Below the pieces are notes generated by a model. That model worked only from the letters and a program-made list of their open reading frames with translations. It was not told where the DNA came from and searched no databases. Below, in pieces: positions 15,610 to 24,611 of a DNA stretch of 26,445 nt; within the stretch, counting starts at the first letter, position 1; every line of letters begins with the position of its first letter. The stretch is taken from positions 1-26,445 of IMG/VR virus record IMGVR_UViG_3300005758_000110; one strand, written 5' to 3'. This DNA is from a virus (Duplodnaviria; Caudoviricetes). Position numbers and translations under genes: made by a program.

Positions 15610-15868
15610 ACAGGCAAAACTTGAATTTGAAAGCCATTTATTAATTGGTTTATTCAAGGCTACAATTGAGCAAAGCACTCACTTAACAGGTAAATACAAA
15701 CAAAAGATGCTGGCTGACTTTAATCTATGGCAAAGAATCGGTTTTAAACTTTTAGAACAACTTGAAAAAAGGAATATAACGGAAGGTGAATACTTGGATA
15801 AAATAGGAGATATTTACCACACTATGAACTCAAATATGCGTGAAGAATTTTACAAAGGATTGGAATGA
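15587..15868 (+). CDS. Hypothetical protein
   Basis: 93-aa helical ORF; ATGA overlap with the MTase gene. Confidence 0.55.
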   Translation: MEKTLTPEQAKLEFESHLLIGLFKATIEQSTHLTGKYKQKMLADFNLWQRIGFKLLEQLEKRNITEGEYLDKIGDIYHTMNSNMREEFYKGLE

Positions 15869-16485
15869 AAGTAACAGATAAAATAGAAATAACAAATGAA
15901 GATAACATGGAGCTAATGGCTCGCTATCCTGATAACTATTTTGATTTGGCAATAGTTGACCCACCTTATGGGATTGATATAAATTTAAGTGGAACACATT
16001 TTAAAGAAAAATACGAAATTAAAAGCTGGGATAAAGAAACACCAACAGACAAATATTTCAATGAATTAAAAAGAGTTTCAAAAAATCAAATCATCTGGGG
16101 TGGAAACTATTTTTTAGATAGGCTTGGAAATTGTAAATGTTTTGTTATTTGGGATAAAAAAATAGCTGAAGATATGAGTTTTGCAATGTGTGAAATGGCT
16201 TGGACTTCTTTTAAAAATGGAGCAAAGATATACAAAACAACCGCAACACAACTTGAAAGAATACACCCTACCCAAAAACCTGTTGCACTATACAAATGGC
16301 TCTTAAACAAATACGCAAAGCAAGGCGATAAAATACTTGACACGCATTTAGGTTCTGGAAGTATAGCAATAGCTTGTCACGATTACGGATTTGATTTAAC
16401 AGCGTGTGAACTTGACAAAGAGTATTTTGATAAAGCCATTCAAAGAATAAAAAACCATGTTAGCCAACAGAAATTGTTTTTATAA
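15865..16485 (+). CDS. DNA N6-adenine/N4-cytosine methyltransferase (beta class)
   Basis: DPPY catalytic motif near the N-terminus, 'HPTQKP' and 'ILDTHLGSGS' SAM-binding motif. Confidence 0.92.
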   Translation: MKVTDKIEITNEDNMELMARYPDNYFDLAIVDPPYGIDINLSGTHFKEKYEIKSWDKETPTDKYFNELKRVSKNQIIWGGNYFLDRLGNCKCFVIWDKKIAEDMSFAMCEMAWTSFKNGAKIYKTTATQLERIHPTQKPVALYKWLLNKYAKQGDKILDTHLGSGSIAIACHDYGFDLTACELDKEYFDKAIQRIKNHVSQQKLFL

Positions 16486-16500
16486 TTAAAAAACTTTTTG

Positions 16501-16508
16501 TATATTTG
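16501..16508 (+). promoter_or_regulatory. Bacteroidota -7 promoter element for the replication operon
   Basis: TATATTTG followed by C; the -33 element is not clear. Confidence 0.65.
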
Positions 16509-16512
16509 CAAA

Positions 16513-16594
16513 AGATGAGTTGCAGCATCTATAAAAAAATTAATTATCCCTTTGGTGAGTAGAGCCTGCAACCTCGAAAGCCGAAGGGTTTTTT
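16513..16594 (+). ncRNA. Structured leader/small RNA with kissing loops and terminator
   Basis: Hairpin 1 AGATG/CATCT has loop AGTTGCAG. Hairpin 2 CCCTTTGGT/GCCGAAGGG has an internal GAGTA/GAAA loop and apical loop CCTGCAAC, followed by T6. The two loops are complementary over 7 nt. Confidence 0.7.
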
Positions 16595-16631
16595 ATTATC
16601 AGTTATTGGTTATCTTAAAACCATTAAAATT

Positions 16632-16865
16632 ATGGAAAGAATAAAAACAATTTTTTGTTCATCTGAAAAATCAGATGTTAATTTTGAAATGGAGTGTTTT
16701 AAAAACACTCGAAATGAAATTTATATTCAAATAAAAAATCCTGAAAATGAACATGAATTTATGTTTATTTGTTTAGACAAAAAAACAGCCATTAAATTTT
16801 CTAAATTATTAAGACGTGAAATTTCTTATATAGAAAGTGAGGTGGATGATGAGGAAAGCAATTAA
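16632..16865 (+). CDS. Hypothetical protein
   Basis: 77 aa, 'ICLDKKTAIKFSKLLRREIS'; first gene after the leader RNA. Confidence 0.55.
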   Translation: MERIKTIFCSSEKSDVNFEMECFKNTRNEIYIQIKNPENEHEFMFICLDKKTAIKFSKLLRREISYIESEVDDEESN

Positions 16866-17484
16866 ATTTTATAATAGTTATTTTGAAGTTGCAAGTCAGT
16901 TAAATGATAAAGATAGATTAGCATTTTATGATGCTTTATTTAATAAGCAATTTAAAAACATAGAACCAAATTTAAAAGGAATGGCAAAATTTGCTTATAT
17001 ATCTCAAAAACATTCCATTGATGCTCAGGTTAAAGGTTATTATGATATTACTAAAGATGAACAATTTAACCCTAATAAACCCCCTACACAAGGGGGTACT
17101 ATACCCCCTATCGAACAAGTAAAAGAAGAAGTAAAAGAAGAAGTAAAAGAAAAAGAACAAATAATAGAGTTTAATGTTTTTTGGAATTTATATAATAAAA
17201 AACTTGGCAATAAAGATTTATGTGAAAAAAAATGGAATAATCTTAAAAATGATGATAGAAAAAAAATTATTGATACATTACCAAACTTTATAAATTCTAT
17301 AAAAGATAAACAATACCAACCTTATCCTGAAACATATTTAAACAATAAAAGATGGAATGATGAAATAACAACTGAAAAAAAAATATTACCAGTTGGAATA
17401 AAATCAGTGGCAGAACAAATTGAGGAAATGAGAAGGTATGGAGAAGATAGGTTTAATAAAATGAAAGAGGAGGGTGAGTTATGA
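16846..17484 (+). CDS. Replication initiator (DUF6291-like N-terminus, helical C-terminal domain)
   Basis: 'F..FWNLY.KK' and 'YPETYLNNKRWNDE' C-terminal motifs, a low-complexity linker with DNA repeats, and a position before the helicase. ATG 16846/16849 is preferred to GTG 16837. Confidence 0.7.
   Translation: MMRKAIKFYNSYFEVASQLNDKDRLAFYDALFNKQFKNIEPNLKGMAKFAYISQKHSIDAQVKGYYDITKDEQFNPNKPPTQGGTIPPIEQVKEEVKEEVKEKEQIIEFNVFWNLYNKKLGNKDLCEKKWNNLKNDDRKKIIDTLPNFINSIKDKQYQPYPETYLNNKRWNDEITTEKKILPVGIKSVAEQIEEMRRYGEDRFNKMKEEGEL
17068..17160. repeat. Iteron-like repeats, putative replication origin within the initiator gene
   Basis: ACCCCCTA at 17079-17086 and 17103-17110, inverted AGGGGGT at 17091-17097, then 3 tandem AAGTAAAAGAAR (17117-17152). 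Confidence 0.6.
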
Positions 17485-19295
17485 TAACAATATTTAAAGA
17501 TTTTAACGAAACCAAAAATCCTTATTATTTGCCTATTGAAAAAGTACTGCAAAGAATTAAAGAATGTAAAATCCAAAATAAAATAGATGAATTAAGAAAT
17601 GAAAAAGATGAAAAGAAAAAAAGTATATTAAAAAAGAAATTGCCTTGTATTTGTTTTTCAGGCAAATTTTTAACACGTTCTGATAAAGATTTAACTGAAC
17701 ATTCAGGTTACATTATTTTGGATTTTGATAAATTAGATAATGCAGAGGAATTTAAAATATCTTTAAAACGCTTTAATTTTATTTATAGCGCATTTATTTC
17801 TCCAAGTGGTAATGGAGTTAAGGCAATAGTAAAAATACCTCCTATAATCGAAAAACATAGGGGTTACTATCGTGGAATATTAAAAGTATTTCCAGAATTA
17901 GATAGTACATCAATAAATGAAAGTCGTATTTGTTTTGAATCTGTAGATGCTAATTTATGGATAAATAAAGATGTAATTGAATTTACAGATTATGTAGAAG
18001 TAGAAAACATAAAAACAAAAGATGTTAAAATAAAAAAAGCTACAAAAACAGATTACTCTAAAGTAAACATTTCATTAGAAATGATTAGAAATTCAATTGA
18101 TGGAGGTAAACACGCTACTCTTTTGAAGGCATCTAAATTAATGGGTGGTTATATTGCAACTGGTTATGTAGAAGAAAATGAAGCTATAAGATTACTTGAA
18201 AAAGAAATAAATGATAAAGGAGTAGATAATTTTGATACTGCAAAACAAACTATTTTAGATGGAATTAATTATGGTAAAACACAGCCAATAATTGAAGAAC
18301 CTATAAAACAAACAAAAGTTAAATCAACAATTAATGTAAATGATAATGATTTTTCATTTTTAGCAGATGAAAATGATATTAATAATTATTTAATTGAATG
18401 GAGACAAGGAACATTTAAAAAAGGATTATCAACTGGTTTAGATACATTAGATAATTATTTTTTATTTAAAAGAGGTAACTTTAATGTTTATAATGGTTTT
18501 GATAATGTAGGAAAGTCAACTACTCTTTGGTATTTTTGTTTATTAAGTTCTCTTTATCATGGTTGGAAATGGATAATATATTCAGCGGAAAACAGAAATG
18601 GCTCAGTAATTAAAAGATTGATTGAATTTTATTGTGGAGAAAAAATACATTTATTAAAAGAAATGCAATATGAAAATGCTTATAATTTTATAAAATCAAA
18701 ATTTACTATAATTAATAATGAACAGATGTATAATTATAAAGATATACTTACAATTACTGAAAAATTACTCTTAAAAGATAAATACGATGGTTTATTATTA
18801 GACCCTTACAATTCTTTAAAAATAGATTTATCAGATAATAGTAAATTAAGTACACATGAATATCATTACGAAGCTGCAAGTGAAATGCAAATGTTTGCCA
18901 AAAAAAGAGATATTTGTGTATATTTAAACTGCCATGTAGTAACAGGAGCAATGAGATTAAAAACTGCACCTATGAAAGCAGATACAGAAGGTGGAGGAAA
19001 ATTTGCAAATAAAGCTGATGACTTTGTAACTATACATAGAGAAACACAAGACCCTGAAAACTGGATGTGTACTCAACTACATGTAAGAAAAATTAAAGAA
19101 ATTGAAACTGGAGGAGGTTATACTCCATTAGATGTGCCTTTTATTTTAAAAATGAAAATTAATAATTGTGGATTTACTGATATTTATGGAAATGACCCAA
19201 TAGTAAAATGGAAACAATTATCTACAAGACAAGTTGAAATAAAAGAAACAAATAACTATTTTTTAAATGATAAACCAAATCATGAGCCTTTTTAA
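17481..19295 (+). CDS. Primase-helicase fusion (VirE_N/BT4734-like primase-polymerase domain + DnaB-like SF4 helicase)
   Basis: N-terminal 'KKKLPCICFSGKF', 'SGYIILDFD', 'FISPSGNGVK', 'SRICFES.D'; C-terminal Walker A 'GFDNVGKST', 'YSAEN', 'LLLDPYN', 'GGGKFANKAD'. Confidence 0.8.
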   Translation: MITIFKDFNETKNPYYLPIEKVLQRIKECKIQNKIDELRNEKDEKKKSILKKKLPCICFSGKFLTRSDKDLTEHSGYIILDFDKLDNAEEFKISLKRFNFIYSAFISPSGNGVKAIVKIPPIIEKHRGYYRGILKVFPELDSTSINESRICFESVDANLWINKDVIEFTDYVEVENIKTKDVKIKKATKTDYSKVNISLEMIRNSIDGGKHATLLKASKLMGGYIATGYVEENEAIRLLEKEINDKGVDNFDTAKQTILDGINYGKTQPIIEEPIKQTKVKSTINVNDNDFSFLADENDINNYLIEWRQGTFKKGLSTGLDTLDNYFLFKRGNFNVYNGFDNVGKSTTLWYFCLLSSLYHGWKWIIYSAENRNGSVIKRLIEFYCGEKIHLLKEMQYENAYNFIKSKFTIINNEQMYNYKDILTITEKLLLKDKYDGLLLDPYNSLKIDLSDNSKLSTHEYHYEAASEMQMFAKKRDICVYLNCHVVTGAMRLKTAPMKADTEGGGKFANKADDFVTIHRETQDPENWMCTQLHVRKIKEIETGGGYTPLDVPFILKMKINNCGFTDIYGNDPIVKWKQLSTRQVEIKETNNYFLNDKPNHEPF

Positions 19296-19370: not shown

Positions 19371-19874
19371 GTGATTGAGGAACTCGTAAACAATAAAATA
19401 TACAAACAAATAACTCGTAATATTTGCCACAATCACGAATTACTTGAGGATTTACATTCGGAGGCTATTATTGTGATAATTGAAAAACAAATTGACTTTT
19501 CAACTATTAGAAACCTTCGCCATTACTTTTCAACCGTTTGCTGGTTAACTTGGCACTCAAATAAATTTAGAAAACGTTATTTTGTTGAACACGTTACATT
19601 TGTGGATAATTTAAATGAAATAGTTGAGCAAAATGATAATATTGATTATTCAGCTTTAATCAGCTTTTTAAATGACTCCCCACAAACAGAAAATGAATTT
19701 TACGAACAAAATCTTTTAAAGCTTTATATTCAGCATGGGGATGCTAAAAAGTTAAGCGATAAAACAAAGATACCTTATAGAACGGTAGCAAACGATATAA
19801 AAAAAATCAAAGAAAAACTCAAACGACAACACAATGAAAAAAATTCTCATCAAAGCGAACATGGGGAACCTTAA
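19371..19874 (+). CDS. Phage sigma-factor-like protein (ECF-type, regions 2 and 4)
   Basis: 'EDLHSEAII' region-2-like segment and a C-terminal HTH 'AKKLSDKTKIPYRTVANDIKKIKEKLK'; at the early/late boundary. Confidence 0.65.
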   Translation: MIEELVNNKIYKQITRNICHNHELLEDLHSEAIIVIIEKQIDFSTIRNLRHYFSTVCWLTWHSNKFRKRYFVEHVTFVDNLNEIVEQNDNIDYSALISFLNDSPQTENEFYEQNLLKLYIQHGDAKKLSDKTKIPYRTVANDIKKIKEKLKRQHNEKNSHQSEHGEP

Positions 19875-20874
19875 CGGTTTATCATTTCACCGATTAATAG
19901 TTCCTTTTGCAAAAATATCCGATATGGTAAACTTCCAATGTGATGTTTTCCCTGACTTAGATGTTGCAACCGATGAGCAGCTTAAACAATATTCAGCAGT
20001 AGTTTATCAAAGAGAAATCGATACAGGTGGCAAATCATTAGAAATAATTAAAAAGTTTCACTCATTAGGAATAAAAGTAATATTCGATATTGACGACATC
20101 TGGACTTTACCTAAAAGCCATTATTTAAGTAGACTTTACGACATACACAATATACCAGACCAAACAATTGAAATTCTTAAAAATGTTGACTTAGTAATAA
20201 CCACTACCAAACATCTGGCATCAAAAATTAAAAGATACAATAAAAACGTTGAGGTTATTCCAAACTGTTTAGACCATGAAGACGAGCAATGGAAAGCAAA
20301 CAAAAGCAAAAGCGACAAAATAAGGTTTGGTTATATTGCAGGGATATTCCACAAAGGCGATATTTCAATTTTGGAACTACCTATTCGTAAAGTATTGAGG
20401 CACGATATAAACGCTCAATTTGTTTTAGGCGGTTACAATGATAATGCAGATTATCACTACTACGAAAAAGTAATGAGTGGCGGTAAGGTAACCGATAAAT
20501 ATCAAAGAGTTTACAGTTTGCCAGTACATGATTATGGTAAGGCTTATAACGAAACAGATGTAAGTTTAATTCCTCTTCAATCAAATTCATTTACTGAATG
20601 CAAAAGTGAAATTAAATTACTCGAAGCTGGTTTACATGGCAACCCTGCAATAGTAAGTGATGTGCTACCTTATAACACTTTTCCCAAAGAAACAGCAATA
20701 TTCTTAAAAAACAATGATATAAATGGCTGGTTTAAGGCAATAAGAGAATTAACCAGAAATGAATCAATGAGAAAGGAATATGCAGAAAGTTTACAAAAAT
20801 ATATTGAAAAACATTATAATATAAACAAATGGACGGAAGTAAGGAAACAAATCCTCGAATCGGTATTGGCGTAA
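19834..20874 (+). CDS. Glycosyltransferase, GT-B fold (GT4-like)
   Basis: 'G..FHRL..P', 'DIDDIW', 'VIPNCLD', 'DVSLIPL....F..CKSEIKLLEAG', 'IVSDV.PY'. Confidence 0.85.
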   Translation: MKKILIKANMGNLNGLSFHRLIVPFAKISDMVNFQCDVFPDLDVATDEQLKQYSAVVYQREIDTGGKSLEIIKKFHSLGIKVIFDIDDIWTLPKSHYLSRLYDIHNIPDQTIEILKNVDLVITTTKHLASKIKRYNKNVEVIPNCLDHEDEQWKANKSKSDKIRFGYIAGIFHKGDISILELPIRKVLRHDINAQFVLGGYNDNADYHYYEKVMSGGKVTDKYQRVYSLPVHDYGKAYNETDVSLIPLQSNSFTECKSEIKLLEAGLHGNPAIVSDVLPYNTFPKETAIFLKNNDINGWFKAIRELTRNESMRKEYAESLQKYIEKHYNINKWTEVRKQILESVLA

Positions 20875-21488
20875 CAACCACTCCAAACAGATATGAGTAC
20901 ATTGATAGATGGCTTGAATACTTTGAAAAGTTTAAACCTAAAAACTATCACTTACACATACATACTGACGAACATTACAAAGGTGTTGCCTATTCAAAAA
21001 ATCAAAATTTAAAAACATTACAGGATTGTGATTATATTTTCCTATTTGACGACGACTGCTATCCTGTTAAACCTGACTGGGCAAAGTTTTTTATTGAATC
21101 AAATTACAATCATTTACTTTACTTACAACCATACCATAGAATAAAAAGCAAAATAAACAATTTAGAGAGCTATCACGATTGTGGTGGGGTGTTAATATAC
21201 TTAACAAAAGAAGTATTAAATAAAGTCGGTTATTTTAATCCTGAGTATGGGCAGTATGGATTTGAACATGCAGGTTACTCAAATCGAATATATAAAGCTG
21301 GTTTAACATCATCCCCTTATCAACAATTAACAGGAACTGATAAATATTTTTTTTCAAAAGATTACATGAATATAGAACACAAATCGAGTATTCCAATTTA
21401 TAAAAAGAATAAATTAATTGAAGAAAATCGAAAAGTTTTTTTAAAGGAATTACAAAGCGAAAAAATTTATTATAACTTTGCAGAGTGA
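20829..21488 (+). CDS. Glycosyltransferase, GT-A fold (GT2-like)
   Basis: 'IGIGVTT', 'GVAYSKN..L', 'IFLFDDDCYP' DxD motif, 'VG.F...YG.YGFEH'. Confidence 0.8.
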   Translation: MDGSKETNPRIGIGVTTTPNRYEYIDRWLEYFEKFKPKNYHLHIHTDEHYKGVAYSKNQNLKTLQDCDYIFLFDDDCYPVKPDWAKFFIESNYNHLLYLQPYHRIKSKINNLESYHDCGGVLIYLTKEVLNKVGYFNPEYGQYGFEHAGYSNRIYKAGLTSSPYQQLTGTDKYFFSKDYMNIEHKSSIPIYKKNKLIEENRKVFLKELQSEKIYYNFAE

Positions 21489-22174
21489 ACGAACACATCC
21501 TTTTTAAATTAGCAACTCGAAGTCGACCACATAAAGCAAAATCAGCTATTGATAATATTATTGCTAATTGCAATTCAATGAATTACACAATATTAGTAAG
21601 CATTGATGAAGATGACTTAACCATGAAAAACTTTGAACATAAAGACGATAATGTTTTTATAATCAAAGGAACTTCCAAAAATAAGATTGATGCTATAAAT
21701 AGGGACATGGATATTTTTGAAGGTTGGAAAATACTTATTAATACTTCGGATGACATGGTATTTAACATAAAAGGTTTTGATGAAATAATAAGACAGGATT
21801 TTAACGGATATTATGACCAAGTATTACATTATACAGATGGATATCAAAAAGGAAACTTAATGACAATGAGTATAATGGGTTATGATTACTATAAACGTTT
21901 CAATTATATTTACTATCCTGATTATATTTCTCTTTGGTGTGACATGGAGGCAACCGAAGTAGCTCATTTGCTAAACAAATATAAATACATGGGCGATGCA
22001 AAGCAATTGTTTACACACGCTCATCCTGCATGGGGATTGACTGAATACGATGAACAATACAGAAAAACTGAAAGTCAAGTAGTTAATAATCATGATAAGA
22101 CTTTATTCAATTATCGAAAATCAGAAAATTATTTTTTGCCTGACCATTTAATAATAAACAAACCTAAATATTAA
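21485..22174 (+). CDS. Glycosyltransferase, GT-A fold
   Basis: 'ATRSRP', 'SIDEDD', 'KIDAINRD', 'LINTSDDM', 'Y.SLWCD.E', 'H.HP'; GTG start overlaps the upstream stop. Confidence 0.7.
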   Translation: MNEHILFKLATRSRPHKAKSAIDNIIANCNSMNYTILVSIDEDDLTMKNFEHKDDNVFIIKGTSKNKIDAINRDMDIFEGWKILINTSDDMVFNIKGFDEIIRQDFNGYYDQVLHYTDGYQKGNLMTMSIMGYDYYKRFNYIYYPDYISLWCDMEATEVAHLLNKYKYMGDAKQLFTHAHPAWGLTEYDEQYRKTESQVVNNHDKTLFNYRKSENYFLPDHLIINKPKY

Positions 22175-22773
22175 TGTATAGTCAAAATAACGAAGAAGAA
22201 GTAATATCAAACTATTTTGGAAACAAAATAGGTAACTTATTAGATATAGGGGCAAACGATGGAATTACTTTATCAAATAGCAGAAAATTAATAGAATTAG
22301 GTTGGAGTGGTGAATTAATTGAACCTGCAGAAATGCCTTATAACAAACTTGTAAATTTATATAAAGACAATAAAAAGATTAAATTACATAATATAGCTAT
22401 ATCGGATTTAAGAGGTGAGCTAACTTTTTATTCAAGTGGAGAACATGTAGGTAATGGAGATAGTGATTTACTTTCTACTCTCTCAATAGTTGATAAACAA
22501 AAATGGGAAAATACAACAGTATATAAAGAAATTAAAGTCCAATCATTAAAATGGATTGATTTTTATAATTGGCAAATTTATGACTTTATAAATATAGATG
22601 CTGAAGGTTATGATTTAAGCATTTTAAAACAAATGGATTTAAAAGAATTGGGATGTAAATGTTTATGTATTGAACACAATGGACATCAATATAATGATAT
22701 AATAAGAGAATTGAAAAAATATAATATGAAGACAATTTTAGTAAATAACGAAAACATAATAGCAGCAATATAA
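22174..22773 (+). CDS. FkbM-family methyltransferase
   Basis: 'MYSQNNEE', 'LDIGANDG...SNS..L...GW.G..IEP', 'DFINIDAEGYD..IL'. Confidence 0.9.
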   Translation: MYSQNNEEEVISNYFGNKIGNLLDIGANDGITLSNSRKLIELGWSGELIEPAEMPYNKLVNLYKDNKKIKLHNIAISDLRGELTFYSSGEHVGNGDSDLLSTLSIVDKQKWENTTVYKEIKVQSLKWIDFYNWQIYDFINIDAEGYDLSILKQMDLKELGCKCLCIEHNGHQYNDIIRELKKYNMKTILVNNENIIAAI

Positions 22774-23354
22774 TGGGAATTACAGATTTTAGTTTACTTA
22801 TTTTAAATAAGTATATCAACGAACAAAAAACAGTATTAGAGTTAGGAGCTCAAAATCTTTATGTGGAATCATATCCAAGCGCACCGTATGCAGATAAATA
22901 TTATACTGCAAAAGGATTAGAATATACTTGTATTGATTTAAATAAAGAAAACAATGCTATGGAATTAGATTTATCTATAAAACAAAATTTAGATAAATTT
23001 GATATAGTTACTGACTTTGGAACTTCCGAACATATTGGTATTGATGGCAAACATGACCCAAAAGCATTTTATAATTGTTGGTTAAATAAACATAATGCTT
23101 GTAAAATAGGAGGTTTAATTATTAGTGAAAACCCAAAAACAGGCAATTGGATAGGTCATGGTTTTAATTATGTGACTGAAAACTTTTATAGACAATTAGC
23201 TCAATCAAATGGTTATGAGATACTTGAAATAGGCGAACATCCTGCAATGAATAACATAACAGATGGTTGGAATATTTATTGTGTACTTCGCAAAACTCAA
23301 GAAAAATTTATGACATTAACTAATTTTAAAAAATTAGAATTTTATACATCATGA
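22773..23354 (+). CDS. Class I SAM-dependent methyltransferase
   Basis: 'VLELGAQ', 'YTCIDLN', 'FDIVTDFGTSEHI', 'GG.II'. Confidence 0.8.
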   Translation: MGITDFSLLILNKYINEQKTVLELGAQNLYVESYPSAPYADKYYTAKGLEYTCIDLNKENNAMELDLSIKQNLDKFDIVTDFGTSEHIGIDGKHDPKAFYNCWLNKHNACKIGGLIISENPKTGNWIGHGFNYVTENFYRQLAQSNGYEILEIGEHPAMNNITDGWNIYCVLRKTQEKFMTLTNFKKLEFYTS

Positions 23355-23932
23355 TACTTTCAATCCTTATACCAACTGTACCTCAAAGGGCTAACCTTTT
23401 TTTAGAGCTTCATAGAGAAATTAACTCTCAATTAGAAATCACAAACGCATTTGGAATAGTTGAGGTTATTTCAGATGATGCACCAGTAGGTACAAAAACT
23501 ACAGGTCAAAAGAGAAATGACTTAATTAATGCAGCGCAAGGCGAATATGTTTGGTTTATTGATGATGATGATATGATAATGCCAAATGCACTTAAAAACG
23601 TTTTAACAGCATTAGAACAAAAACCTGATGCATTAGCTATTAATGGAATAATCACTACTAATGGTGTAGATAAAAAAGAATGGTATATAAGTAAGGATTT
23701 AGAATATATTGCAGATTGGTCTAAAGGATATGAAGTTTATTTAAGACCAACAAATCATATTACACCAACTAAAAGAGAAATAGCAAAACTAATAAAGTTT
23801 GAAGATAAAAGTAACTTTGAAGATTATGCTTATTGCATGGAACTCAAAAGATTAGGATTAATTAAAACAGAAGTTAAAATAGACGAACCTGTTTACCATT
23901 ATAGATACATCAACTATGATAAACTTTACTGA
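23351..23932 (+). CDS. Glycosyltransferase family 2
   Basis: 'LSILIPT..R', 'G.KRN.L...A.GEYV.FIDDDD', 'FED' and 'YHYRY'. Confidence 0.88.
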   Translation: MILSILIPTVPQRANLFLELHREINSQLEITNAFGIVEVISDDAPVGTKTTGQKRNDLINAAQGEYVWFIDDDDMIMPNALKNVLTALEQKPDALAINGIITTNGVDKKEWYISKDLEYIADWSKGYEVYLRPTNHITPTKREIAKLIKFEDKSNFEDYAYCMELKRLGLIKTEVKIDEPVYHYRYINYDKLY

Positions 23933-24611
23933 ATGCGCAATAATATGTTTTGCAAATAGCAGCTATTCAAAGGGGGCGCAAAGATTAAGAGAAAGTGTAA
24001 CTGAACATAATTTTAAAGGTGAACTATTTATTTTCACAGATGAAACGCAAGTTCCATGTCCGCTTCACTCACAAAATCCTTACGCTTTTAAAACTTTTAT
24101 ATTTGATAGAGTAAAAAATTTAGGCTTTAAAAAAATACTATGGGTTGATTCATCTGTTTATTTAATTAAAAACATAGACCACATATTTGAATTAATAGAT
24201 AAAGATGGATATTTAATGCAAGAAGCTGGTCATCATGTAGGAACTTGGGCAAATGATAAATGTTTAAATTATTTCAATATAAATAGAGATGAGGCATTAA
24301 ATATGTTAATGTATGGAAATGCAGGTTTATTAGGATTAAATTTTGAAAATGAAATAGCTATTAAATTTTTTAACAAATGGCACCAGGCATCAAAAGACGG
24401 AATATTTATCGGTAAATGGAATAATAACGATAAAACAGAAAGCGAAGATGAAAGATGCAAAGGTCATAGGCATGATATGACTTGCGGAAGCATAATAGCA
24501 AATCAACTTAAAATGAAATATCATTCAGGGCAAAGTATATTAATGTATGGCGCACCAGAAGATGAATCATTAAACGAAACAATAGTATTTAAAGCTCAAG
24601 GAATTAATTAA
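23916..24611 (+). CDS. Putative nucleotide-sugar transferase (GT-A-like)
   Basis: 'PYAFK', 'ILWVDSS', 'NAG', 'HRHDMT..S' resemble GT-A enzymes with a C-terminal HRHDQ-type motif. Confidence 0.6.
   Translation: MINFTECAIICFANSSYSKGAQRLRESVTEHNFKGELFIFTDETQVPCPLHSQNPYAFKTFIFDRVKNLGFKKILWVDSSVYLIKNIDHIFELIDKDGYLMQEAGHHVGTWANDKCLNYFNINRDEALNMLMYGNAGLLGLNFENEIAIKFFNKWHQASKDGIFIGKWNNNDKTESEDERCKGHRHDMTCGSIIANQLKMKYHSGQSILMYGAPEDESLNETIVFKAQGIN

What the first reader, a model, noticed from the sequence alone, without database searches (positions are those of the whole stretch)
16501..16594. Kissing-loop, bulged-G leader RNA with terminator in front of the replication operon
Seen: right after a -7 promoter box, the hairpin 1 loop GTTGCAG (16519-16525) is exactly complementary to CTGCAAC (16566-16572) in the apical loop of hairpin 2. 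Hairpin 2 carries an AGUA/GAA internal loop and is followed by U6, so it doubles as a terminator. Known: AGUA/GAA is the sarcin-ricin/loop E motif, and P4 CI RNA and P1 C4 RNA control phage operons through short loop complementarity. Inference: an RNA attenuator or immunity/copy-control switch that gates the initiator and primase-helicase genes, possibly acting in trans on superinfecting relatives with the same loop sequence.
Basis: partly seen in the sequence, partly recalled or inferred. Interest (0 to 1): 0.72.

Follow-up and report, generated by a model that had tools for sequence, protein, structure and literature searches.

The report
Address-coded kissing-loop phage leader RNA
In front of this phage's replication genes lies an 82-base leader whose first hairpin loop exactly matches the loop of a predicted transcription-stop hairpin; related phages keep the match with dozens of different 7-letter 'addresses', and it likely works as a self-silencing RNA switch that lets the genes be read briefly and then turns them down.

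Summary
The 7-bp loop-loop match is kept in 65 of 66 well-stemmed homologues found without using the loop sequence. In all, 109 distinct elements carry 39 different 7-mers. Rfam has no match.

It is not replication-specific. Of 86 downstream genes, 40 are endonuclease-type and 21 replication-type. Close relatives carry a different, two-loop leader behind the same promoter.

Folding predicts the loop pairing forms in the nascent RNA before the terminator can (88 of 88). That is the kissing-loop-versus-terminator logic of the guanidine-IV riboswitch, but here the loop is hypervariable. Codes differ between elements with identical stems and between copies in one genome (0 of 15 pairs share one). 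This suggests the terminated RNA silences same-code leaders in trans.

P4-style prophage immunity fits poorly: integrase in 2 of 23 records, downstream target in 7 of 94. No expression or functional data. The scan noted this family before on other DNA.

The parts
16501..16508 (+). Bacteroidota sigma-A-type -7 promoter box TATATTTG; predicted transcription start 16513
   Evidence: Sequence. The box sits at -12 to -5 in Flavobacterium (PMC9723704, passage). An exact TAnnTTTG lies within 45 nt upstream of the code in 66 of 88 homologues, 9-10 nt away in 37 of those 66.
16513..16530 (+). Hairpin 1 (5 bp, 8-nt loop) at the predicted 5' end of the RNA
   Evidence: 5 of 5 pairs show double changes; 81% of cells paired.
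16519..16525 (+). 5' address word GTTGCAG (loop 1)
   Evidence: Exact complement of 16566-16572; covaries in 65 of 66 loop-blind homologues.
16531..16547 (+). AU-only single-stranded linker (17 nt)
   Evidence: family median 18 nt, 91% AU.
16548..16588 (+). Hairpin 2: 9-bp terminator-like stem (16548-16556/16580-16588), AGUA/GAA loop-E-type internal loop (16557-16561/16576-16579), 3-bp stem (16562-16564/16573-16575), 8-nt loop
   Evidence: 9 of 9 lower-stem pairs show double changes; 95-96% paired.
16566..16572 (+). 3' address word CTGCAAC (loop 2)
16589..16594 (+). U6 tract; predicted end of an 82-nt terminated RNA
   Evidence: Sequence; termination itself not measured.
16632..16865 (+). 77-aa ORF of unknown family, first gene behind the leader; optional in relatives
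   Evidence: No Pfam or PHROG hit. In L002/L005/L008 the leader joins directly to the initiator gene; the same joint is seen in public runs.
16837..17484 (+). Putative replication initiator (DUF6291 N-terminus, phrog_270 C-terminus)
17481..19295 (+). Primase-helicase (BT4734-like_N, DnaB_C; phrog_18375)

Best explanation
It is a promoter-proximal leader whose two hairpin loops carry a matched 7-base word, and it likely acts as a self-silencing transcription attenuator in which pairing of the loops within one nascent RNA favours read-through while terminated copies would block that pairing in later transcripts carrying the same word. Shown: the fold, the covarying loop match, the position between promoter and gene, and the rapid turnover of the word. 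Predicted by folding: loop 1 captures the loop-2 word as soon as it is made, before the 3' strand of the terminator exists; if loop 1 is occupied, the terminator hairpin forms. Inferred: released 82-nt RNAs accumulate and pair with loop 1 (or loop 2) of new transcripts. That would give a burst of expression in a freshly infected cell and then shut-down, separately for each word, and a co-infecting phage or incoming endonuclease cassette with another word would escape. The role of the AGUA/GAA motif (likely stiffening the stem or presenting the loop) is untested.
For: Covariation. Folding order: in the RNA ending at GAA the word helix has P>0.5 in 88 of 88 elements, against 2 of 88 when loop 1 is given a non-cognate word in silico. 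At full length the two-hairpin terminator fold is the more stable in 70 of 88. For the window, the word helix dominates for 3' ends 16573-16585 and the hairpin pair at 16588; with loop 1 blocked the upper terminator stem reaches P 0.82 at 16585 and 0.97 at 16588. Precedent for kiss = read-through with the same topology: guanidine-IV riboswitch (PMC11611296, passages). Word as address: of 26 element pairs with identical stems (27 nt), 18 differ in word and 15 of these at three positions. Of 15 within-genome pairs, 0 share a word and all differ at two or more positions. Two runs each hold the same scaffold with two different words (X3, X5). Downstream genes are ones that plausibly need a limited dose: endonucleases, initiators, primases. 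Precedent for a leader-derived RNA causing termination in trans: P4 CI (PMC4825925, passage).
Against: No transcript ends, expression levels or functional data: only assembled contigs were available. ViennaRNA scores neither the kissing geometry nor loop-E stacking, so the nascent-fold result could overstate the word helix. A 17-nt linker may be long enough for kiss and terminator to coexist (my geometric estimate); linker and stem length are uncorrelated (rho -0.09, p 0.42, n 84), which decides nothing. Within-genome orthogonality is weak statistically: random elements share a word only 6% of the time. All 14 independent pairs differing at two or more positions has p of about 0.05 under a one-clade null (45 of 227 between-contig pairs differ at 0-1 position). 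The identical-stem pairs come mostly from three words in one clade and are not independent. Word positions 1, 2, 4 and 7 are biased (G, U, G, G), so structure also constrains the word.
Confidence: 0.45

Rival explanations
1. Cis-only kinetic throttle: the loop pairing and the terminator compete in each transcript and set a fixed read-through fraction. Nothing acts in trans, and the word drifts or is shuffled by cassette recombination.
For: Needs only the predicted folding competition. Most records carry one copy (39 of the 46 matching records; 41 of 42). Leaders and downstream genes are swapped as cassettes. T4 endonuclease genes are dosed by leaky terminators (PMC2988022, passages).
Against: A purely structural helix should change more slowly than its flanking stems, yet 15 of 26 identical-stem pairs differ by three compensated pairs, and copies in one genome never share a word.
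Confidence: 0.25
2. Ligand- or protein-gated switch like the guanidine-IV riboswitch: a small molecule, or a phage or host protein binding the AGUA/GAA motif or the kiss, tips the balance towards read-through.
For: Same topology as guanidine-IV and Gd4v (PMC9788692, parts 1-2; PMC11611296). AGUA/GAA and four word positions are conserved; GAA follows the 3-bp stem in 5 of 5 true elements from a scan that did not ask for it.
Against: [quoted passage not shown] Downstream genes are unrelated DNA-acting proteins, not a metabolic regulon.
Confidence: 0.15
3. The kiss forms in the finished 82-nt RNA and stabilises it (or the terminator). The element is then a stable small RNA or strong terminator cap, and the downstream gene is expressed by leak or from other promoters.
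For: The linker is rarely under 14 nt (1 of 88), as if it must span the whole of hairpin 2. The two-hairpin fold is the more stable at full length in 70 of 88.
Against: The word helix is predicted to form before the terminator and to enclose its 5' strand. In the guanidine-IV case extension of the terminator stem sterically opposes the kiss. In most homologues the start codon lies within about 20 nt of the U tract, with no room for a second promoter.
Confidence: 0.12
4. A DNA-level element (origin, cruciform or recombination site) rather than an RNA.
For: It often precedes replication genes, and the word pairing is strictly Watson-Crick in 65 of 66 loop-blind cases.
Against: The stems hold many G-U pairs that work on one strand only. 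The AGUA/GAA motif and T tract are directional, the 5' hairpin starts at the predicted transcription start, and about half of the copies head endonuclease genes.
Confidence: 0.03

Closest known systems
Guanidine-IV (mepA/GGAM-1) riboswitch and the Gd4v motif
   Same: Two hairpins joined by a loop-loop pseudoknot, the 3' hairpin being an intrinsic terminator; there, kissing gives read-through (PMC11611296 passages; PMC9788692 parts 1-2).
   Different: [quoted passage not shown] This one has 39 loop words, an AGUA/GAA internal loop, a phage habitat, and endonuclease or replication genes downstream.
Phage P4 CI RNA (seqA/seqC) and P1/P7 c4 (immI; Rfam RF01695)
   Same: A leader-derived RNA segment complementary to a site just behind the promoter. 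In P4 it causes premature termination of replication genes (PMC4825925 passage); small sequence differences in immI separate P1 and P7 immunity (PMC6906374 passage).
   Different: No RF01695 match; a single loop rather than the C4 cloverleaf (C4 shape recalled); a downstream target in only 7 of 94; mostly integrase-free phages. The two-loop leader of L014-L016 looks closer to the C4 layout.
Terminators and hairpins that dose T4 homing endonuclease genes (mobE, segF, seg43(25))
   Same: A hairpin or leaky terminator limits transcripts of free-standing endonuclease genes (PMC2988022 passages).
   Different: Those are simple hairpins inside or next to the gene, with no loop-loop word and no own promoter-leader cassette in the passages seen.
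TEG147 (Rfam RF03535)
   Same: The same kind of hairpin: stem, AGUA/GAA internal loop, upper stem, U tract; two homologues score 23.6 and 27.5 bits.
   Different: Far below the 56.1-bit gathering score. The 29 distinct matches to a TEG147-derived pattern (some chance) start just behind promoter-like sequence and show no 5' hairpin matching their loop; the best upstream complement was 5 nt or less in 27 of 29.
Counter-transcript attenuators of plasmids (pT181/pIP501 type; recalled)
   Same: Kissing-initiated RNA control of termination ahead of a replication initiator, with loop sequence setting specificity.
   Different: They use an antisense promoter; no enrichment of an opposite-strand -7 box was found here (12 versus 9 of 94).

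Membership tests
Guanidine-IV / Gd4v riboswitch | 5' hairpin loop pairs with loop of a 3' terminator hairpin | tested here: met
   (covariation; pairing itself not probed).
Guanidine-IV / Gd4v riboswitch | [quoted passage not shown] | tested here: not met
   39 words in 109 elements; positions 3, 5 and 6 vary widely; feature from PMC9788692.
Guanidine-IV / Gd4v riboswitch | Downstream guanidine exporter, MATE, GNAT or transaminase genes | tested here: not met
   None among the Pfam hits of 86 downstream proteins.
Guanidine-IV / Gd4v riboswitch | Rfam model match | tested here: inconclusive
   No guanidine family hit, but I did not check that a guanidine-IV model is in the library.
Guanidine-IV / Gd4v riboswitch | Ligand-dependent read-through | not testable with these tools
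   Needs transcription assays.
P4 CI / P1 c4 antisense immunity RNA | Match to C4 model RF01695 | tested here: not met
   0 matches at E<=10.
P4 CI / P1 c4 antisense immunity RNA | Complementary target upstream, just behind the promoter (seqA-like) | tested here: met
   16519-16525; 65 of 66.
P4 CI / P1 c4 antisense immunity RNA | Second complementary target downstream (seqC-like) | tested here: not met
   None in the window: the 6-of-7 match at 16888 is Val-Ala coding sequence that stays unchanged in relatives with another word. Present in 7 of 94 family members (6 right behind the U tract, 4 of them one clade), control 35 of 3102.
P4 CI / P1 c4 antisense immunity RNA | Maintains a lysogenic state | tested here: inconclusive
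   Tyrosine integrase in 2 of 23 records (1 over the cut-off), resolvase in 0 of 23; plasmid-like or carrier states are not excluded.
P4 CI / P1 c4 antisense immunity RNA | Processed stable RNA that acts in trans | not testable with these tools
   Only assembled contigs available.
Flavo-1 (RF01705) | Rfam model match | tested here: not met
   0 matches at E<=10.
TEG147 (RF03535) | Score above gathering threshold; hairpin directly behind the promoter | tested here: not met
   23.6 and 27.5 bits versus 56.1; TEG147-like elements lack the 5' partner hairpin.
Plasmid counter-transcript attenuators | Antisense promoter on the opposite strand | tested here: not met
   Opposite-strand TAnnTTTG in the first 160 nt downstream in 12 of 94, against 9 of 94 in the window 140-300 nt downstream.
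Loop E / sarcin-ricin / bulged-G motif | AGUA opposite GAA, closed by helices on both sides | tested here: met
   Invariance in the alignment is partly by search design, but GAA was present in 5 of 5 true hits of a scan that did not require it. 3D geometry not tested.

The most novel reading that the evidence does not exclude
Phages of Bacteroidota and their selfish endonuclease cassettes run a protein-free, address-coded RNA latch. The terminated leader is its own repressor, each cassette has a private 7-base address, and addresses diversify to escape silencing by co-infecting relatives or by other cassettes in the same genome. This would be an RNA-only self/non-self and timing system in mostly integrase-free phages, with one-loop and two-loop versions swapped at the same promoter.
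Probability: 0.4. Interest if true: 0.86.

Novelty: new variant of a known kind. Interest (0 to 1): 0.7.

Why it matters
If right, it shows how phages without repressor proteins could time replication genes, limit toxic homing endonucleases and tell kin from non-kin using only an 82-base leader. It would turn the guanidine-IV riboswitch architecture into an RNA-sensing one. It would also supply a natural set of about 40 candidate orthogonal attenuators for Bacteroidota genetics. Even as a cis-only throttle it is an abundant RNA family absent from Rfam, with unusually clean pseudoknot covariation and a simple bench test.

Tried and rejected
Rfam at permissive E-values on the window, the short region and 30 homologous or related loci: only sub-threshold matches, apart from one tRNA elsewhere in L014. 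Flavo-1 and C4 models: none.

blastn of the element against GenBank phages: 12 records, none covering the leader's structured part.

A loop-anchored pattern (about 1500 estimated matches) was nearly all chance: 5 true elements by eye among the rows printed. A promoter-anchored pattern added 3 new elements from 83 loci.

Cellular genomes: 6 of 56 pattern matches had the loop complement, all among phage-like genes judged by eye. The model hit only the centre genome among 151 of one Bacteroidota family, but only 29 candidates per genome were scored, so this is weak.

A second copy or target in the window: none; the next model hit scored 19.6 bits and other GTTGCAG sites lie in coding sequence or lack the structure.

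Linker-versus-stem correlation: -0.33 with a crude parser, -0.09 with a fold-based one; uninformative. The terminator-stem column was mis-indexed and is not used; the 3-bp upper stem served as proxy.

Read laying: all four runs in each call were assembled contigs, so no start, end, strand or level could be read; DNA may be present in the one RNA-labelled library.

TEG147 as a processed form of this RNA: rejected.

Dropped from the within-genome count: the second copies in G028 (6-nt word, 4-bp upper stem) and G219 (5' end cut off), both with words unlike their partners. G247 and G249 hold the same two elements and count once.

Full report
1. Setting. The window is a 26.4-kb virus record, 77% complete, with structural genes followed by an ERF/YqaJ/NinG recombination block, a DNA methyltransferase, and a replication block: 77-aa ORF, DUF6291/phrog_270 initiator, primase-helicase. 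A Bacteroidota host is inferred from the TAnnTTTG promoter type and from 5 of the 6 true matches in cellular assemblies being labelled Bacteroidota.

2. The observation. With the -7 box at -12 to -5 (PMC9723704, passage), transcription would start at 16513, the first base of hairpin 1, and a terminated RNA would be 82 nt. A shuffled upstream stretch holds the loop complement in 96 of 100,000 trials. The unconstrained best fold pairs the 5' segment with the top of hairpin 2; it is 0.4 kcal/mol better than the two-hairpin fold, so two folds compete.

3. Covariation. I scanned viral contigs with a pattern that fixes only the internal loop, the 3-bp stem and a T tract (121 loci of about 310 estimated). 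Of 106 distinct matches, 105 had enough upstream DNA. Among the 66 with an unbroken lower stem of 8 bp or more, 65 carry the exact reverse complement of their own loop within 75 nt upstream, in 24 different words; 14 of the remaining 39 do too. Non-cognate pairings match in 6 of 4146. A second loop-blind scan gave 21 of 21 after dropping 3 duplicates and 1 truncated locus of 25; it overlaps the first set. On a 53-sequence alignment, 93.9% of cells pair against 66.5% in shuffles, and 23 of 24 pairs show double changes. The kissing helix in that alignment was selected for, so one search is the unbiased test. In all, 109 distinct elements carry 39 words.

4. What it heads. Of 89 elements parsed, 86 gave a downstream ORF of 40 aa or more. 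Forty are endonuclease-type (30 by Pfam: NUMOD4/HNH, GIY-YIG, NUMOD3, EndoVII, T5orf172; 10 more by PHROGs). Twenty-one are replication-type (11 DUF6291, 2 Prim-Pol, 2 HTH_36, 6 initiator or DnaD-like by PHROGs). One is BRO and the rest are unassigned (only 26 of the 86 were run against PHROGs). So the element is a portable promoter-leader cassette, not a replication-specific device. Three relatives with 88-97% identical primase-helicase DNA, two of them with the identical 29-nt promoter, carry a different leader and a different initiator. That leader has a three-way-junction terminator whose two loops each match a 5' segment, the longer match covarying. Cultured Tenacibaculum phage JQ has a third version at the same position, with a 10-nt match to the terminator loop and no AGUA/GAA (read by eye).

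5. Distribution. The covariance model finds one copy in the window (90.5 bits, next 19.6). It matches 46 of 47 and 42 of 42 virus records chosen from these loci; the one miss is the relative with the two-loop leader. Seven and one of those records hold two to four matches, and four further two-copy records appear. In 596 Gb of cellular genomes only 6 of 56 pattern matches were real, all in phage-like context by eye. Tyrosine integrase was found in 2 of 23 mostly complete records and resolvase in 0 of 23, so these are largely non-integrating phages.

6. Mechanism. Predicted: in the RNA made up to GAA, before the terminator's 3' strand exists, the word helix has probability above 0.5 in 88 of 88 elements, and in 2 of 88 with a non-cognate word. 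At full length the two-hairpin fold wins in 70 of 88. With loop 1 blocked, the window RNA folds into the terminator hairpin. These energies omit kissing geometry and loop-E stacking. The same topology is established for the guanidine-IV riboswitch, where the kissing loop hinders completion of the terminator and extension of the stem opposes the kiss (PMC11611296, passages). I took this lead from earlier scan notes and checked it in the papers. I therefore read kiss = read-through.

7. What gates the switch. This step is inferred from how the word evolves. Of 26 pairs with identical stems, 18 differ in word, 15 of them at three positions, that is six compensated changes (not independent pairs). 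Copies in one genome never share a word (0 of 15 pairs, 14 independent, all two or more differences); this has p of about 0.05 against a one-clade null. Two runs each contain the same scaffold with two words. A ligand pocket would not behave so; an address would. The simplest reader of the address is the terminated leader itself, as P4's CI RNA is derived from its leader and causes termination of replication genes (PMC4825925, passage). There is no sign of an antisense promoter (12 versus 9 of 94), and a P4-like downstream target exists in only 7 of 94. I put the full latch model at 0.45, a cis-only throttle at 0.25, ligand or protein gating at 0.15, a stabilising kiss at 0.12 and a DNA element at 0.03.

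8. Known families. No Rfam family reaches threshold; Flavo-1 and C4 give nothing. It works like guanidine-IV in topology and, if the inference holds, like P4 CI in logic, but it fails membership of both (see tests). TEG147 shares the loop-E terminator hairpin only (listed as a sarcin-ricin match in PMC13085918 and as a 60-nt RNA in PMC5826253, passages).

9. Is it in print? Ten searches found no description, but the library lacks most subscription journals. Passages of PMC2864571 and PMC5737381 showed no such motif; their supplements were not searched. PMC10690425 (passages; supplement tables) lists automated viral candidates upstream of NUMOD4 or GIY-YIG genes. DNAVirus_1203 (96 nt) and DNAVirus_1290 (92 nt), wholly or partly freshwater, could overlap this family, but their alignments could not be read. 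Other papers were seen as follows: PMC9788692 parts 1-2 of 6, PMC2988022 passages, PMC6906374 passages, PMC9723704 passages. The C4 cloverleaf shape and the pT181/pIP501 attenuators are recalled, not read here. Earlier scan notes describe this architecture in other genomes; they are not independent support.

10. Verdict. A real RNA leader family of probable Bacteroidota phages, absent from Rfam and very well supported structurally. New variant of a known kind; interest 0.70.

Noticed in passing
L014 483-620, L015 1503-1640, L016 1214-1350; also L448-L458: A different leader behind the same promoter: a 5' hairpin plus a long terminator with a three-way junction whose two loops each match a 5' segment, the longer word covarying. 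It resembles the recalled P1 C4 layout; no Rfam match in the four of these loci scanned.
   Followed up: partly
L447 2155-2260 (Tenacibaculum phage JQ, MT002873.2): A cultured phage has a related leader without AGUA/GAA but with a 10-nt match between the 5' hairpin loop and the terminator loop, before the same small ORF-initiator-helicase order. A possible bench model.
   Followed up: partly
L143, L154, L168, L200, L017, L116, L484 (just behind the U tract): A third copy of the word sits directly before or across the start codon in a minority of elements, a seqC-like arrangement.
   Followed up: partly
window 10285-10200, minus strand: A TAnnTTTG box followed about 45 nt later by a strong 11-bp hairpin and T tract, with no ORF: a possible short antisense or non-coding RNA; the hairpin also has a T run usable on the plus strand after the 9777-10202 gene.
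   Followed up: no
window 15865-16485 and 16632-16865: The methyltransferase gene before the promoter and the 77-aa ORF after the leader are both absent in some relatives; public runs show joints 15864-16482 and 16597-16855.
   Followed up: partly
L501-L554: TEG147-like loop-E terminator hairpins occur in many non-viral contigs directly behind promoter-like sequence, several ahead of genes starting with a conserved 'ILVDGGY'-type motif (NYN-like RNase by recall, not tested).
   Followed up: no
window 19834-24611: A run of glycosyltransferase- and methyltransferase-like genes follows the replication block (judged from translations of the first three; not scanned).
   Followed up: no
L014 5684-5753: A weak tRNA match (31.6 bits) just before the small terminase-like gene in a close relative.
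   Followed up: no
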